The notes: generated by a model not told the origin, from the sequence alone. Shown: positions 9,172 through 13,461, numbered from the stretch's first letter. The stretch: DNA of 64,000 nucleotides from the human T2T-CHM13v2.0 reference genome, Homo sapiens (GCF_009914755.1 NC_060933.1); one strand, 5' to 3'. A program made the numbers and translations.

Positions 9172-9879
9172 TTTTTTTTTAACTTCTTGCCTTTTAATAA
9201 TATCTTTGAATATAGATGGTTTCAATTCTCCAATAACAAGATGTAGAGTGCCCAAATGGTTTTTCATACATGTTTCCCTAGTCCAGACACCCAAGAGTAT
9301 GTCCCTCTCTTGGGCATAAGAAAACCTAGAGTTATATTTAGGGCATCATGTGTGGTGAATAGTTGACCGAGCTGTCATGCTCACAATGACCAAATTATGT
9401 TTGTCATATTTTAATCCAATACATTGATCTACTATGAACTTGTAAATAATGTATTTGCTTTCTAGACACATTCCAGGAAGACCAGAGAAACTGACTTTTA
9501 TCCATATGGAATAATCCACTGGCAAATTTCTTTTAGGACAGACCAAAGCTGATCTAGAACATAATCTTTACATACTTGGATCCTTCCCATCAGACAAGAA
9601 AGAACATCTGGGGTGAAAGACTCCATTAGAAGAGCAATGTGGGATGGTGCTGTGCTGACAACTGGTAATTCCTGCCCTACATCTTTGTAGAGGACTGGAG
9701 CCCAGAGCATGCCATGGTCAACTTGTATGTTGAAGTGAAGACCTCCTTCGAGGTGTTCATGTGCTTATTACAGATATGCCATGGTGCTAAGTACCCCAGG
9801 ACTACAGGAAAAAATAAGAATAGATGTTGTATCCATGATCATGAGGCACACAGGCCAGAGCGCCAGCTGTGGAATCGCA

Positions 9880-9965
9880 CAGCCTGGGTTCAAAGCCTGG
9901 CTGGGCCATGACCACCTGAATGACCTGAGGAATGGTCTCAGGCAAATTTGTAAAAAGTGGAGACC
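9880..9965 (+). mobile_element. MIR fragment inside the retrocopy
   Basis: ACAGCCTGGGTTCAAAGCCTGGCT...TGACCTGAGG...TTGTAAAAAGTGGAGA resembles the MIR core. Confidence 0.5.
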
Positions 9966-10592
9966 CTGCCTGCCAGGGAGGCATGTGGTAAGAGGCGCAT
10001 CCAGTCAGGTCAGGGCACCGCGTTCTCTCTTTGGAAACCTGCGGAGCGAGGCTGGTGGCCCTTGAGGCCACGGCAGCCATGGAGAAGGCGGGCCTGGCTC
10101 CAGGCAGCACAGAGGCACTGGAGAGGCCCCGGGGGAGCCTGGCGGGATCTGGCTGGTCCTGTGCTCTGCTTCCAGGTTCTGGCCCTGTAACCCGGGGGAC
10201 AGGGCCGGCCAAGACAGGGCCACTGGGTGCCAGCCAGCACCTGGGCGAGGTGCCAGGTGGAAGGGCTCTGGCGGATCAGCCCCGCACCCCCAACAGCCCC
10301 ACGGGGGGGCCCGTCCAGGGCCACACAACTGCCCCCAGGAGCAGGACGTCCCTGAGGCTAGAGTCCAGCTGGACCGGTGGAAGGGTCTCACCCTTTGCCC
10401 TTTGACTCCTCTTGTAGGCACCCTCGCTGGGCTCCTAAGCACTCCTCCACACCCTGGCTCTGTCACCAGCCCCATAGTGATGTCATAAACTCCCAGATGC
10501 CCAGTGTGCACCCAGCCACAGAGAAGTGGGTGACTTAGGAGTATCCTCTCCGCTTCTGACCCTTGGTTTCGTCTGTGCACAACTCACTCAAA

Positions 10593-11816
10593 ATGGGCAA
10601 CTCATTAAGCATATTTTGTTCCTGGTTCCGCCGCAGGTCCTGGCCATGCCATTGGCAACCTGCTCGTCTTGTCCATGAGGCCTTCCCAGCTGGCCGGGCT
10701 AACCCCGCGGCTCCTGCACCTGTGCCTGCCCGGGGAATCGTGGGCCGTTTCCCACTCCTCTTCAACCCTCAGCGACATCTTGGGCCTTCTTTTCCAGTCA
10801 GTTGGGACGGCGCCCCTATGAGGCTGTGTCTTATCCCTCGGAACATGGGCACCCCACAGAGGGTCCTGTCTCCTGTGGTCTGGAGCCCCGCCTCAAGGAA
10901 GAAACCCACGCTGTCTGCTCACAACTCCAGGATGTTTGGACACCTCAGCCCCGTGAGGATTCCTCATCTCAGAGGCAAGTTTAACCTTCAACTTCCTTCA
11001 TTAGATGAGCAGGTGATCCCAGCCAGGCTCCCGAAGATGGAGGTGAGGGCAGAAGAGCCCAGAGAAGCAACGGAGGTGACAGACCAGGTAGAGACCCAGG
11101 GGCAGGAGGACAATAAAAGGGGCCCCTGTAGCAATGGGGAAGCAGCTTCCACCTCTAGGCCCCTGGAGACTCAGGGAAACTTCACTTCCTCCTGGTACAA
11201 TCCCAGGCCCTTGGAGGGAAATGTCCACCTCAAGAGCTTGACAGAAAACAACCAGACTGACAAGGCCCAGGTGCCTGCAGTGAGTTTCTACTCCAACGGC
11301 CATGGAGTCGCCAGTTCACACAGCCCTGCTGGAGGCATCCTTCCCTTTGGGAAGCCTGACCCACTTCCAACAGTGCTCCCTGCCCCAGTTCCAGGCTGCT
11401 CCCTGTGGCCAGAGAAGGCGGCCTTGAAGGTGCTGGGTAAAGACCACCTGCCCAGCTCTCCAGGCTTGCTGATGGTGGGGGAGGACATGCAGCCCAAGGA
11501 TCCTGCAGCTCTTGGGTCAAGTAGGTCTTCTCCACACAGAGCTGCCGGCCACAGTTCCCACAAAAGAAAACTGTCGGGGCCACCGCTGCAGCTGCAACCG
11601 ACCCCTCCCCTGCAACTGAGGTGGGATAGAGACGAGGGGCCCCCACCGGCTAAGCTTCCATGTCTATCTCCTGAGGCACTGTTGGTGGGTCAGGCTTCCC
11701 AAAGAGAAGGACGCCTCCAGCAGGGCAACATGTGTAAGAACATGAGGGTGTTAAGTAGAACATCAAAATTCAGGAGAGTAAGAGAGCTGCTTAGGAGGAG
11801 AAAGAAGAGATGGTAG
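10593..11816 (+). CDS. Intronless NPAP1/POM121-related ORF (UPF0607-type), 407 aa from ATG 10593; expression unproven
   Basis: MGNSLSIF...FGHLSPVRIP...SNGEAASTSRPLETQG...PLEGNVH...GKPDP...LRWDRDEGPPPAKLPCLS is collinear with the recalled NPAP1 N-terminal region (MGNLLSKF...FGHPSSVRIP...LLWDRGELPPPAKLPCLS) and with UPF0607 proteins. No internal stop or frameshift. The ORF track starts at an upstream TTG (10563). Confidence 0.85.
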   Translation: MGNSLSIFCSWFRRRSWPCHWQPARLVHEAFPAGRANPAAPAPVPARGIVGRFPLLFNPQRHLGPSFPVSWDGAPMRLCLIPRNMGTPQRVLSPVVWSPASRKKPTLSAHNSRMFGHLSPVRIPHLRGKFNLQLPSLDEQVIPARLPKMEVRAEEPREATEVTDQVETQGQEDNKRGPCSNGEAASTSRPLETQGNFTSSWYNPRPLEGNVHLKSLTENNQTDKAQVPAVSFYSNGHGVASSHSPAGGILPFGKPDPLPTVLPAPVPGCSLWPEKAALKVLGKDHLPSSPGLLMVGEDMQPKDPAALGSSRSSPHRAAGHSSHKRKLSGPPLQLQPTPPLQLRWDRDEGPPPAKLPCLSPEALLVGQASQREGRLQQGNMCKNMRVLSRTSKFRRVRELLRRRKKRW

Positions 11817-11898
11817 GGCAGGCGTGGTGGCCCACGCCTGTAATCAAGCACTTTGGGAGGCCCAGGCGGGCGGATCAGGAGGTCAAGAGATTGAGACC
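11816..11898 (+). mobile_element. AluSc, 5' part (interrupted by SVA2)
   Basis: GGGCAGGCGTGGTGGCCCACGCCTGTAATC...GGATCAGGAGGTCAAGAGATTGAGACC; GTCAAGAGAT is the Sc-type diagnostic. The element continues at 12981. Confidence 0.85.
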
Positions 11899-12980
11899 TG
11901 AGGAGCATCTCTGCCTGCACCATCTGGGAAGTGAGGAGCGCCTCTGCCCGGCTGCTCCACCGTCTGGGAAGTGAGGAGCGCCTCTGCCAGGCTGCTCCAC
12001 CGTCTGGGAAGTAAGGAGCACCTCTGCCCAGCTGCCCCACCATCTGGGCAGTGAGGAGCGCCTCTGCCCGGCCCCCGCCCTCTCTGGGAAGTGACGAGCG
12101 CCTCTGCCCGGCCGCCTCACAGTCTGGGAAGTGAGGAGCGCCTCTGCCCGGGCCCTGCCCCGTCTGGGCAGTGAGGAGTGCCTGTGGAGTCCGCCGCCCT
12201 GTCTGGGAAGTGAGGAGTGCCTGTGCCCGGCTGCCATCCTGTCTGCAAAGTGAGGAGTGCCTCTGCCCGGCCCCCTTACACTCTGGGAAGTGAGGAACGC
12301 TTCTGCCTGGCCACTGCCCTGTCTGGGAAGTGAGGAGCGCCTCTGCCCAGCTGCCCACCGTCTGGGAATTGAGGAGGAGCACTGCCTCTGCCCGGCCTCC
12401 ATCCCATCTGGGAAGTGACGAGCACCTCTGCCCGGCCGCCTCACGGTATGGGAAGTGAGGAGCGCCTCTGCCCAGCCGCCGCCCTGTCTGGGAAGTAAGG
12501 AGCGCCTATGCCTCGCCGCCGTCCTGTCTGCGAAGTGAGGAGTGCCTCTGCCTGGCCTCCTCACCGTCTGGGAAATGAGGAGCGCCTCTGCCTTGCCGCT
12601 GTCCTGTCTGCGAAGTGAGGAGTGCCTCTGCCCGGCCTCCTCACCATCTGGGAAATGAGGAGCGCCTCTGCCTGGCCACCATCCCATCTGGGAAGTGAGG
12701 AGTGCTTCTGCCCAGCCACCGCCCTGTCTGGAAAGTGAGGAGCACCTCTGCCTGGCCCCCTCACCGTTTGTAAGGGAGAAGCGCCTCTGCCCAGCCCCTG
12801 CACCGTCTGGGAAATGAGGAGCGCCTCTGCCCGGCCCCCTCACCATCTGGGAAGTGAGGAGCATCTCTGCCCGGCTGCTGTGCAACCTTCCAAGTGTGAA
12901 GTGACAGCCTTGTGTGTGATCTTTCTGCCCTCCCCAAGTTTGCATTTTCGACATTGAAGTTTACTTTTTAATTAAAAAAA
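11899..12980 (+). mobile_element. SVA2-type element: about 25 x ~40-bp SVA VNTR units + unique 3' end + poly(A)
   Basis: Units GTCTGGGAAGTGAGGAGCGCCTCTGCCCGG; 3' end TGCAACCTTCCAAGTGTGAAGTGACAGCC...TTTTTAATTAAAAAAA. No hexamer, Alu-like domain or SINE-R. TSD AAGAGATTGAGACC (11885-11898) / AGGAGATTGAGATC (12981-12994). Confidence 0.88.
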
Positions 12981-13186
12981 AGGAGATTGAGATCATTCTG
13001 GCCAACATGGTGAAACTCCGTCTCTACTGAAAATACAAGAATTAGGCCGGCATGGCGGTTTGTGCCTGTGGTCCCAGCTACTCGGGAGGCTGAGGCAGGA
13101 GAATGGCTTGAACCCGGGAGGTGGAGGTTGCAGTGAGCCGAGATCGCACCACTGCACTCCAGCCTGGTGACAGAGCAAGATTCCGT
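12981..13186 (+). mobile_element. AluSc, 3' part; A-tail removed by splicing
   Basis: Continues the Alu consensus from the TSD and ends at ...GCAAGATTCCGT, directly fused to the SPTLC1 exon 3 end. Confidence 0.9.
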
Positions 13187-13447
13187 CCTGAAACGATGTT
13201 GTAGTTGAGAGCAGGATGGTCTTTTGGGACAGGAGGAACAAGAGGTTCTGGTTGCCACTCTTCAATCAGTTCTTCTTTTTCCTCGACTGTAAGATCAGAT
13301 CATTCTTGTAATTTGTAAGTCTTAGAGAAAAGAAGTCTGATTTATCCAGAGTATCAGAATCCCTTCCAAAATAAGATAGTAAGCAGGAGCCTCGTAAAGC
13401 GCCTGTACCATCTCCACGAGAACCCACTGCTCCGTGGCGGTCGCCAT
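13187..13447 (-). pseudogene. SPTLC1P: SPTLC1 (serine palmitoyltransferase LCB1) codons 1-87, intronless exons 1-3, disabled
   Basis: Minus strand reads [35 protein letters not shown], then after a +1 frameshift [51 protein letters not shown], which is the SPTLC1 N-terminus. Extra base at 13341-13343; CGA>TGA at 13300-13302; 14 nt of 5'UTR at 13448-13461. Confidence 0.95.
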
Positions 13448-13461
13448 AGTTAGTCGCTTCC

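What the first reader, a model, noticed from the sequence alone, without database searches (positions are those of the whole stretch)
9172..13461. Antisense-passenger retrotransposition: an NPAP1/POM121-like gene copied whole, with its upstream DNA, inside a chimeric SPTLC1 mRNA
Seen: one TSD-bounded, polyadenylated 4.29-kb insertion whose sense strand is SPTLC1 exons 1-3 plus a ~4-kb terminal exon. Its antisense strand holds ~1.4 kb of upstream sequence, a 407-codon open ORF, and a 3' region ending in an SVA2 A-tail. Established: ordinary retrocopies lose their promoter. Inference: riding antisense in another gene's terminal exon lets a gene be retroposed as a complete promoter-ORF-3'end cassette, with SPTLC1 acting as the vehicle. 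I recall that both SPTLC1 pseudogenes and UPF0607 ORFs are multi-copy in human; if they co-locate, this is an amplifying composite unit rather than a one-off.
Basis: partly seen in the sequence, partly recalled or inferred. Interest (0 to 1): 0.88.

Follow-up and report, generated by a model that had tools for sequence, protein, structure and literature searches.

The report
SPTLC1 retrocopy carrying antisense UPF0607 gene
This is a processed copy of a short alternative SPTLC1 messenger RNA whose long last exon runs backwards through an NPAP1-like (UPF0607) gene fragment and its upstream DNA, and the same RNA seeded at least nine such copies across the human genome, which explains how most of that small gene family was scattered.

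Summary
Window 9172-13461 is an L1-type processed insertion with a perfect 17-nt target-site duplication and a short untemplated A tail on the minus strand. Its minus strand is SPTLC1 exons 1-3, spliced, then joined to a 4.0-kb alternative last exon.

The source is the real SPTLC1 gene (C9:104.27-104.28 Mb). There, exon 3 splices (GT..AG) into an antisense-Alu acceptor 2.3 kb downstream. The transcript ends at an ATTAAA site that has no genomic A run.

The plus strand carries 1.4 kb of upstream DNA homologous to the region upstream of NPAP1. It also carries a 407-codon POM121-family ORF that starts at the NPAP1-homologous ATG, and an Alu split by an SVA2-like VNTR element.

Nine full-length copies share every junction but have different flanks. 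The tree is star-like, which points to one master locus rather than self-amplification.

The ORF is intact in 6 of 9 copies, yet dN/dS is about 1.1-1.4. The upstream DNA is not a CpG island, and promoter activity is untested. The ORF is only the Alu-truncated 5' third of an NPAP1-like gene.

No searched paper links SPTLC1 to UPF0607.

The parts
9155..9171 (.). left copy of the 17-nt target-site duplication TAAGTGGTAAAAATCTT
   Evidence: family D5, 100% identical to 13462-13478
9172..9178 (-). untemplated poly(A) tail of the retrocopied RNA (a T run on the plus strand)
   Evidence: the source has cttctgtc here and no A run
9193..9198 (-). ATTAAA polyadenylation signal of the vehicle transcript, 14 nt before the cleavage site
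   Evidence: read; the same signal is in the source
9179..13186 (-). alternative last exon of SPTLC1 (an intron-3 sequence), from the antisense-Alu acceptor to the intronic poly(A) site
   Evidence: 92-94% identical to C9:104269280-104272956
13187..13281 (-). SPTLC1 exon 3
   Evidence: 100% identical to C9:104275227-104275323
13282..13390 (-). SPTLC1 exon 2, with a 1-nt insertion at 13341 that breaks the SPTLC1 frame
   Evidence: the source exon 2 peptide matches PDB Serine palmitoyltransferase 1 residues 20-55
13391..13461 (-). SPTLC1 exon 1 from the transcript start (14-nt 5'UTR, ATG at 13447)
13462..13478 (.). right copy of the target-site duplication
   Evidence: family D5
9179..10592 (+). 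DNA upstream of the passenger ORF. 9268-9931 and 9943-10250 are homologous to -1685..-1018 and -649..-347 of the NPAP1 start codon. 9900-10500 is GC-rich but CpG-poor.
10593..11816 (+). UPF0607 / NPAP1-like ORF of 407 codons. The ATG is homologous to the NPAP1 ATG. A TAG at 11814-11816 replaces the CAG seen in the other copies, whose ORFs run 416 codons.
11817..11898 (+). left part of the Alu that truncates the NPAP1-like reading frame
   Evidence: read; Alu matches
11899..12983 (+). SVA2-like insertion inside the Alu. It holds a 40-nt VNTR at 11918-12875, a unique tail and an A run at 12974-12981. It is flanked by the direct repeat AGATTGAGA(C/T)C at 11888-11898 and 12984-12994.
   Evidence: read; dispersed related arrays with the same ends
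12984..13186 (+). right part of the Alu. Its antisense end supplied the 3' splice site in the source (tttttgag|ACGGAG), and its tail was spliced away.

Best explanation
Window 9172-13461 is one of at least nine independent L1-mediated retrocopies of a single alternative SPTLC1 mRNA. A tenth, older and 5'-truncated copy also exists.

In the parent gene, exon 3 is spliced to an acceptor created by an antisense Alu 2.3 kb into the downstream intron. Transcription then runs antisense through an SVA2-like VNTR, an Alu-truncated NPAP1-like (UPF0607) ORF and 1.4 kb of that ORF's upstream DNA. It ends at an intronic ATTAAA site.

Because the nested gene fragment lies wholly inside that last exon, each reverse-transcribed copy deposits upstream DNA, ORF and 3' repeat block together on the opposite strand.

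All young copies came from the SPTLC1 master locus within a short period, roughly the hominoid stem by divergence. The copies cannot propagate themselves.

The passenger ORFs have since evolved without detectable amino-acid constraint, so the copy in this window is most likely a non-functional pseudogene whose ORF is still open.

Shown: anatomy, source, splice and poly(A) sites, copy number, independence of the insertions, star phylogeny and dN/dS. Inferred: germline expression of the isoform, the dating and the lack of function.
For: - Insertion hallmarks: a perfect 17-nt TSD, an untemplated A tail and an ATTAAA signal.
- Source gene: exon 1, 2 and 3 matches at C9:104281800-871, 104278941-9051 and 104275230-323, and the last exon at 104272956-104269280, all collinear on one strand.
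- Splicing: GT donors and AG acceptors at each junction, and a T21 tract followed by gag|ACGGAG at the Alu acceptor.
- Host identity: exon 2 matches Serine palmitoyltransferase 1.
- Copy number: 9 of 13 matches to the exon 1-3 probe are contiguous spliced copies, and all 13 candidates were scored. All nine run through the exon 3-Alu junction to the same poly(A) region.
- Independence: each copy has its own flanks. The longest exact up/down shared words are 17, 9, 12, 17, 11, 7, 6, 7 and 15 nt.
- No truncated young copies: the 1.4-kb 3' probe found, at 96% identity or more, only these nine, the source and one segmental duplicate. All 28 candidates were scored.
- Star tree: 0 of 9 inner branches are well supported, and end branches are 0.013-0.027.
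- No amino-acid constraint: pooled over the nine copies there are 60 synonymous and 207 nonsynonymous changes on 301 and 923 sites, giving dN/dS about 1.1. Against a context-matched expectation the counts are 60 vs 74.0 synonymous and 206 vs 185.8 nonsynonymous.
- CpG o/e of the upstream GC-rich stretch is 0.19-0.35 in all copies and in the consensus.
Against: - The ORF is intact in 6 of 9 retrocopies. This is more than I would expect for neutral 1.2-kb frames of this age.
- Nonsense substitutions number 1 observed against 7.2 expected. The simulation gives P 0.006, or 0.003 when the window's own copy is left out. One of five control frames shows a similar deficit (2 vs 7.85), so this test is not clean.
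- The ORF evolves about 1.6 times faster than its upstream DNA at non-CpG sites. No explanation here accounts for that.
- I could not locate SPTLC1 exon 4. A short-motif scan of 16.3 kb downstream found nothing, so 'intron 3' is inferred from the position downstream of exon 3.
- No primate genomes or expression data were available, so the dating and the germline expression are inferences.
Confidence: 0.7

Rival explanations
1. The mechanism of origin is the same, but the passenger is a working cassette. The carried upstream DNA acts as a promoter, probably testis-type, and some of the copies encode UPF0607 proteins whose reading frames are kept open by selection.
For: - 6 of 9 ORFs are intact from the same ATG, one at 407 and five at 416 codons.
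- Stop-creating substitutions number 1 against 7.2 expected.
- Indel events number 4 in the ORF against 10 in the slightly longer upstream DNA.
- The ATG and N-terminus are shared with NPAP1, and the upstream homology reaches -1685.
- NPAP1 pseudogene transcripts are reported as mainly testis-expressed in a passage of PMC4423968.
Against: - dN/dS is about 1.1 by simple counting and about 1.4 against a context-matched expectation.
- A control frame shows a similar stop deficit, 2 vs 7.85.
- The indel difference is not significant by my arithmetic.
- The upstream DNA is CpG-depleted, with o/e about 0.3.
- The source copy itself is frameshifted in this genome.
- RefSeq calls the window's locus a pseudogene (hub annotation).
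Confidence: 0.22
2. The composite unit amplifies itself: copies are transcribed from their own SPTLC1-derived 5' end and give rise to further copies, as in the SVA_F1/MAST2 subfamily (recalled).
For: The family has many copies and identical internal junctions. The chr6:64.37M and chr13:76.88M copies pair weakly (87/94) and share a longer 5' start.
Against: - The tree is a star. Inner branches are 0.001-0.003 and 0 of 9 are well supported.
- Copies begin within 0-24 nt of one another at the SPTLC1 transcript start and carry no promoter DNA.
- The chr6/chr13 pair use different cleavage sites.
Confidence: 0.03
3. The copies arose by DNA-level (segmental) duplication.
For: Two genomic duplicates of the block do exist on chromosome 9 and share flanks beyond the poly(A) site. 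One is C9:94.58M, 10.6 kb long, 94.9% identical and including exon 3. The other is C9:100.01M.
Against: The nine copies lack introns 1 and 2 and the 2.3-kb intron. They end in A tails at the poly(A) site and have unrelated flanks, most with TSDs.
Confidence: 0.01
4. The chimera arose by L1 reverse-transcriptase template switching between two RNAs, or the ORF/SVA2 block inserted into a pre-existing SPTLC1 retrocopy.
For: None found.
Against: - The junction is a canonical donor/acceptor pair in collinear source DNA.
- The junction is identical in 9 of 9 copies.
- The Alu/SVA2 block is already present in the source, in both genomic duplicates and in the old chr8 copy.
Confidence: 0.01

Closest known systems
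Processed pseudogenes / retrocopies of alternative (intronic-polyadenylation, Alu-exonized) mRNA isoforms
   Same: Spliced exons, an untemplated A tail after a poly(A) signal, TSDs, and an L1-endonuclease-like target (TTT|AAGA read; the consensus is recalled).
   Different: 93% of the copied RNA is intron-derived last exon. That exon contains, in antisense, another gene's ORF together with its upstream DNA.
UPF0607 / NPAP1 / NPAP1L retrogene family (Neumann et al. 2014, PMC3942032)
   Same: The ORF is a POM121-family member. It shares its start codon and upstream homology with NPAP1. The paper calls UPF0607 a primate-restricted, intronless and hence likely retrogene group (passages; section 11 read).
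   Different: The paper does not mention SPTLC1 (0 occurrences). Here the dispersed UPF0607 copies are shown to be antisense passengers of an SPTLC1 mRNA, not copies of a UPF0607 mRNA.
SVA_F1 (MAST2 exon 1 spliced into an intronic SVA) and other exon-trapping or chimeric-transcript retrocopies such as PIPSL
   Same: Host 5' exons are spliced onto an intronic repeat-derived acceptor. The hybrid RNA is then retrotransposed many times.
   Different: In SVA_F1 the retroelement is the sense-strand cargo and the family keeps amplifying. Here the cargo of interest is antisense and all copies trace to one master locus.
Retrogenes that kept their promoter because transcription started upstream of it (rodent preproinsulin I; recalled)
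   Same: It is a route by which an RNA-mediated duplicate can include 5' flanking DNA.
   Different: Here the flanking DNA is included because it is read on the opposite strand by a host gene. No unusual start site of the gene itself is needed.
Host-gene intronic polyadenylation at nested retrogenes (H13/Mcts2; PMC13309782, abstract start only)
   Same: A retrogene-derived sequence nested in an intron is associated with premature polyadenylation of the host transcript.
   Different: No evidence here that the nested gene's activity causes the SPTLC1 intronic poly(A) use. The orientation is antisense, and the consequence studied here is retroposition.

Membership tests
L1-mediated processed retrocopy | parental introns removed at canonical splice junctions | tested here: met
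   exon 1/2, exon 2/3 and exon 3/last-exon junctions are contiguous in the copy, and GT..AG is present in the source
L1-mediated processed retrocopy | 3' poly(A) not encoded at the source, placed after a poly(A) signal | tested here: met
   ATTAAA, cleavage after GTTAA; the source continues cttctgtc
L1-mediated processed retrocopy | target-site duplication flanking the insert | tested here: met
   family D5: 17 of 17 nt identical
POM121 family (Pfam PF15229) / UPF0607 | profile match above the curated cut-off | tested here: met
   71.7 bits against a cut-off of 27; residues 154-358 match profile positions 2-213 of 235
Alu exonization | 3' splice site formed by the antisense Alu poly-T tract followed by AG | tested here: met
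   T21 then gag|ACGGAGTC at C9:104272956. The Alu identity is by inspection and by Alu-type multi-copy matches.
Functional retrogene | purifying selection on the coding sequence | tested here: not met
   dN/dS about 1.1-1.4 on the nine terminal lineages
Functional retrogene | open reading frame retained | tested here: inconclusive
   6 of 9 intact; stops 1 vs 7.2 expected, but control frame -0 shows 2 vs 7.85.
Functional retrogene | transcription from its own promoter | not testable with these tools
   no expression data were available; upstream homology to NPAP1; CpG o/e about 0.3
Self-propagating composite retrotransposon (SVA_F1-like) | copy-of-copy descent (nested tree with shared derived changes) | tested here: not met
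   star topology, 0 of 9 inner branches well supported
Segmental duplication | homology continues beyond the insert ends | tested here: not met
   for the nine copies. The feature is met only for C9:94.58M and C9:100.01M.

The most novel reading that the evidence does not exclude
Antisense-passenger retroposition is a real route of gene-family birth. By riding backwards in the last exon of a germline-expressed SPTLC1 isoform, the UPF0607 gene was copied with its own regulatory DNA. Several hominoid copies (five ORFs of 416 codons and one of 407 are still open) are transcribed from that DNA and kept open by selection. The vehicle exon may also be the chromosome-9 piRNA precursor reported antisense to an NPAP1 pseudogene.
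Probability: 0.15. Interest if true: 0.8.

Novelty: new variant of a known kind. Interest (0 to 1): 0.6.

Why it matters
Retrocopies are normally said to arrive without their promoter. This case shows in detail a way round that. A gene nested antisense in another gene's last exon is copied together with its 5' flank, and here that happened nine or ten times.

It also corrects how the human UPF0607/NPAP1-like family spread. Nine of the family's high-identity loci are SPTLC1-isoform retrocopies rather than copies of the family's own mRNA.

It explains why SPTLC1 pseudogene and NPAP1/UPF0607 pseudogene annotations should sit at the same places.

It suggests a simple genome-wide screen: look for retrocopies whose opposite strand holds an ORF plus upstream DNA.

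Tried and rejected
- Recalled RefSeq short isoform. I recalled a SPTLC1 short isoform of 143 residues and tested whether the vehicle encodes it. The source exons 1-3 plus the Alu frame give 122 residues, so I make no such identification.
- Exon 4. A Pfam PF00155 search of the genome scored only 9 of 54 candidates, none on chromosome 9. A short recalled motif was absent from 16.3 kb downstream. Exon 4 was not located.
- Further downstream DNA. A smaller request was granted.
- PDB search with the spliced N-terminal peptide. Exon 2 alone, given by reference, supplied the identification.
- piRNA lead. PMC4436662 reports a chromosome-9 piRNA cluster antisense to NPAP1P6 (passage). Its supplements held no occurrence of NPAP1 or SPTLC1 in the files searched, and file 8 was not searched. 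I could not tell whether that locus is the SPTLC1 intron.
- Literature on the link.
  - 'UPF0607': 3 papers.
  - SPTLC1P / NPAP1P / 'SPTLC1 pseudogene' / NPAP1L: 21 papers, none linking the two families in the passages I read.
  - 'SPTLC1' with 'processed pseudogene': 5 papers. I read only PMC7140787, which mentions a truncated processed pseudogene near SPTLC1.
  - 'SPTLC1' with 'retrocopies': 0 papers.
  - SPTLC1 with intronic polyadenylation, exonization or alternative last exon: none of the 12 papers listed, out of 150 that held at least two of the four terms, contains SPTLC1.
  - A retrocopy review (PMC5470649, passages) did not mention antisense passengers.
- Stop-codon depletion as proof of selection. 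I rejected it as decisive because one of five control frames shows the same deficit.

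
Full report
**1. The observation**

The window is human T2T chr9:28148001-28212000, inside a LINGO2 intron. RefSeq marks 10518-12035 (+) as a UPF0607 pseudogene, LOC646700 (hub annotation).
- Read on the minus strand, the insert starts with a 14-nt leader and an ATG at 13447.
- It ends ...ATTAAAAGGCAAGAAGTTAA followed by seven A that are not part of the duplication.
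- In insert orientation the target reads TTT|AAGA, which resembles the L1 endonuclease consensus (the consensus is recalled).

**2. What the minus strand is**

A search of the window's own genome with the first 272 nt (window 13190-13461) scored all 13 candidates.
- Three matches lie collinear on chromosome 9, at 104281800-871, 104278941-9051 and 104275230-323. These are three separate exons of one gene.
- The translation of the middle exon, taken by reference, matches residues 20-55 of the 473-residue PDB chain 'Serine palmitoyltransferase 1' at E 6e-18. The parent gene is therefore SPTLC1.
- Aligning the insert to 20 kb of that locus shows exon 1 to exon 2 to exon 3. After a 2.27-kb gap, one block runs from 104272956 down to 104269280.

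The source sequence has GT after each of the three exons and AG before exons 2 and 3.
- At the fourth junction a run of 21 T is followed by gag|ACGGAGTC. This is the antisense end of an Alu used as a 3' splice site.
- The block ends at ATTAAA-N14-GTTAA. In the genome this is followed by cttctgtc, not by A.

The insert is therefore a processed copy of a collinear alternative SPTLC1 mRNA: exons 1-3 plus an Alu-exonized, intronically polyadenylated last exon.
- In window coordinates: exon 1 is 13461-13391, exon 2 is 13390-13282, exon 3 is 13281-13187 and the last exon is 13186-9179.
- A 1-nt insertion at 13341 breaks the SPTLC1 frame in this copy.
- In the source this isoform would encode 122 residues. 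I could not tie it to an annotated isoform.
- I did not locate exon 4. 'Intron 3' therefore rests on the block lying downstream of exon 3 of a gene whose first three exons encode only about 87 of 473 residues.

**3. What the plus strand carries**

- ORF 10593-11816 has 407 codons and matches Pfam POM121 (PF15229) at E 1.1e-19.
- The NPAP1 locus on chromosome 15 holds a 1156-codon ORF. Its first residues align with the start of this ORF.
- NPAP1's upstream DNA from -1685 to -1018 and from -649 to -347 is homologous to window 9268-9931 and 9943-10250.
- So the '1.4 kb upstream' is truly the family's 5' flank, not decayed coding sequence.
- The ORF stops where an Alu begins (11817). That Alu is split by an 1085-nt insertion at 11899-12983. 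The insertion holds a 40-nt VNTR of 23.9 units, a unique tail, an A run and its own short direct repeat.
- Related arrays with the same ends are scattered over the genome.
- In the source, NPAP1 homology resumes on the far side of the Alu (NPAP1 residues 389-521 at C9:104272987-104273382). That stretch lies in the part of the intron that is spliced out.
- The copies therefore hold the Alu-truncated 5' third of an NPAP1-like gene, not a whole one.

**4. A family of copies**

- Nine loci carry the spliced exon 1-3 segment: this one, chr1:151.20M, chr2:68.54M, chr6:23.72M, chr6:64.37M, chr8:27.29M, chr10:31.39M, chr13:76.88M and chr16:66.15M.
- All nine run from the SPTLC1 5' end through the exon 3-Alu junction to the same poly(A) region. 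Their lengths of 3310-4523 nt differ mainly in the VNTR.
- Each has unrelated flanks and an A-rich tail.
- The longest exact words shared by the two flanks are 17, 9, 12, 17, 11, 7, 6, 7 and 15 nt. By eye, chr16 has a 12-of-14 duplication, chr2 has only about 7 nt, and chr6:23.72M has none I could recognise.
- 5' ends differ by 0 to about 24 nt and cleavage sites by 0, 4 or 8 nt. This is as expected for separate RNA molecules.
- A probe of the 3'-most 1.4 kb, with all 28 candidates scored, found only these nine, the source and one duplicate at 96% identity or more. There are therefore no young 5'-truncated copies.

**5. Other relatives**

- C9:94.58M is an inverted genomic duplicate of 10.6 kb. 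It is 94.9% identical and includes exon 3 and the unspliced intron.
- C9:100.01M is an older genomic paralogue, about 8.5% diverged. It shares DNA beyond the poly(A) site and already holds the Alu/VNTR block.
- C8:36.6M is an older retrocopy, 84-88% identical. It ends at the same poly(A) site with an A-rich tail, has an 11-nt duplication, is 5'-truncated inside the VNTR and was later rearranged.
- In a tree of the upstream region, C8:36.6M branches below the split of C9:100.01M from the source group (91/88 support). The antisense transcript and its poly(A) site therefore seem to predate the young burst.
- More distant members are C9:99.98M, the two NPAP1L pseudogenes between TLE4 and TLE1 (C9:92.02M and 92.52M; compare section 11 of PMC3942032) and NPAP1 itself.

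**6. Master locus or self-amplification**

Over 2.7 kb the eleven young sequences differ pairwise by 2.8-4.8%. They form a star: end branches are 0.013-0.027, inner branches 0.001-0.003, and 0 of 9 inner branches are well supported.

Together with 5' ends that stop at the SPTLC1 transcript start, this points to repeated copying of RNA from one master gene in a short period, not copy-of-copy spread.

Non-CpG change per copy is 0.94-1.65% depending on the region. Set against recalled ape divergences, this suggests roughly the hominoid stem. That dating is an inference and needs orthologous-site checks.

**7. Is the passenger functional?**

The consensus ORF is 416 codons long.
- It is intact in 6 of 9 retrocopies. 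This copy has 407 codons because codon 408 changed from CAG to TAG. The other five have 416.
- It is frameshifted in three retrocopies, in the source and in the C9:94.58M duplicate.

On the nine terminal lineages there are 60 synonymous and 207 nonsynonymous changes, giving dN/dS of about 1.1.

| Class of change, ORF frame | Observed | Expected (CpG context kept) |
|---|---|---|
| Synonymous | 60 | 74.0 |
| Nonsynonymous | 206 | 185.8 |
| Stop-creating | 1 | 7.2 |

The simulation gives P 0.006 for the stop deficit, or 0.003 for the eight copies that were not the reason for this report.

The five control frames gave 7/8.0, 12/8.4, 2/7.9, 14/12.3 and 6/9.2 observed/expected stops. A deficit of this size can therefore arise without selection.

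Other relevant measures:
- Indel events number 4 in the ORF and 10 in the upstream DNA. By my arithmetic this difference is not significant.
- The GC-rich stretch before the ATG (GC up to 0.71) has CpG o/e of 0.19-0.35 in every copy and in the consensus. It is not, and was not, a CpG island.
- The ORF changes about 1.6 times faster than its upstream DNA at non-CpG sites. I cannot explain this.

Overall, there is no amino-acid constraint and only a suggestive excess of open frames. Neutral decay is the more likely reading. Function in some copies remains possible (about 0.2).

**8. What is known**

- PMC3942032 defines UPF0607 as a primate-restricted, intronless and 'likely retrogene' sister of NPAP1. 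It never mentions SPTLC1 (0 occurrences; section 11 read).
- SPTLC1P and NPAP1P gene symbols appear in gene lists. One table places SPTLC1P2 near chr6:23.8 Mb in its own coordinates, which fits the chr6:23.72M copy.
- Searches for SPTLC1 together with retrocopies (0 papers), with processed pseudogene (5 papers, one read) and with intronic polyadenylation or exonization (no SPTLC1 paper among the 12 listed) found no description of the link.
- A retrocopy review did not mention antisense passengers in the passages I searched.
- Gene annotation databases themselves could not be consulted, so curators may already know of the co-location.
- The closest mechanisms I recall are exon-trapping retrocopies (SVA_F1/MAST2), retrocopies of read-through chimeras (PIPSL) and promoter carry-over through upstream starts (rodent preproinsulin I). 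None was checked here.

**9. Verdict**

The structure and the vehicle mechanism are real and now well documented. The family-wide consequence appears not to be in the searched literature: most dispersed UPF0607 loci are SPTLC1-isoform retrocopies. The functional extension (a working promoter-ORF cassette) is open and currently leans negative.

Noticed in passing
G000 C8:36596810-36599391 (locus L049): An older retrocopy (84-88% identical), 5'-truncated inside the VNTR and later rearranged. It ends at the same poly(A) site and has the 11-nt duplication AAGAAAGAGTG. It branches below the split between the SPTLC1-intron block and its C9:100.01M paralogue, so the antisense transcript seems older than the young burst.
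   Followed up: partly
G000 C9:94576865-94587802 (loci L046, L047): A 10.6-kb inverted segmental duplicate of SPTLC1 exon 3 plus the intron-3 block, 94.9% identical. It dates to about the same time as the retrocopies. Its ORF is broken.
   Followed up: partly
window 11323-11364 and 11685-11726: A 42-nt inverted repeat (95% complementary) lies inside the ORF. The 300 nt between the arms has 87% matches at three chromosome-10 loci (C10:51.54M, 80.73M, 88.26M). The repeat is also detectable in the older NPAP1L copies.
   Followed up: no
window 9179-11816 and the eight sister copies: At non-CpG sites the ORF has changed 1.65% per copy. The distal upstream DNA has changed 0.94% and the GC-rich upstream DNA 1.15%. 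The cause is unknown.
   Followed up: partly
nine young copies: All nine young copies are full length, at 3.3-4.5 kb. No young 5'-truncated copy was found among 28 of 28 scored candidates. This is unusual for L1-mediated insertions.
   Followed up: no
G000 C6:64373346-64377626 and C13:76884229-76888751: These two copies both start 22-24 nt further upstream in SPTLC1 and are cleaved 8 and 4 nt further downstream. They pair weakly in the tree (87/94).
   Followed up: no
window 10593-10610 and NPAP1 (locus L048, position 4535): The N-terminus MGN.LS.F is shared by NPAP1 and the UPF0607 ORFs. It resembles an N-myristoylation start (motif recalled). The chr2 copy has changed the glycine.
   Followed up: no
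literature, chromosome 9: PMC4436662 reports a sperm/testis piRNA cluster processed from the strand antisense to the NPAP1 pseudogene NPAP1P6 on chromosome 9 (passage). If that locus is the SPTLC1 intron block, the vehicle exon would be the piRNA precursor. I could not obtain the coordinates.
   Followed up: partly
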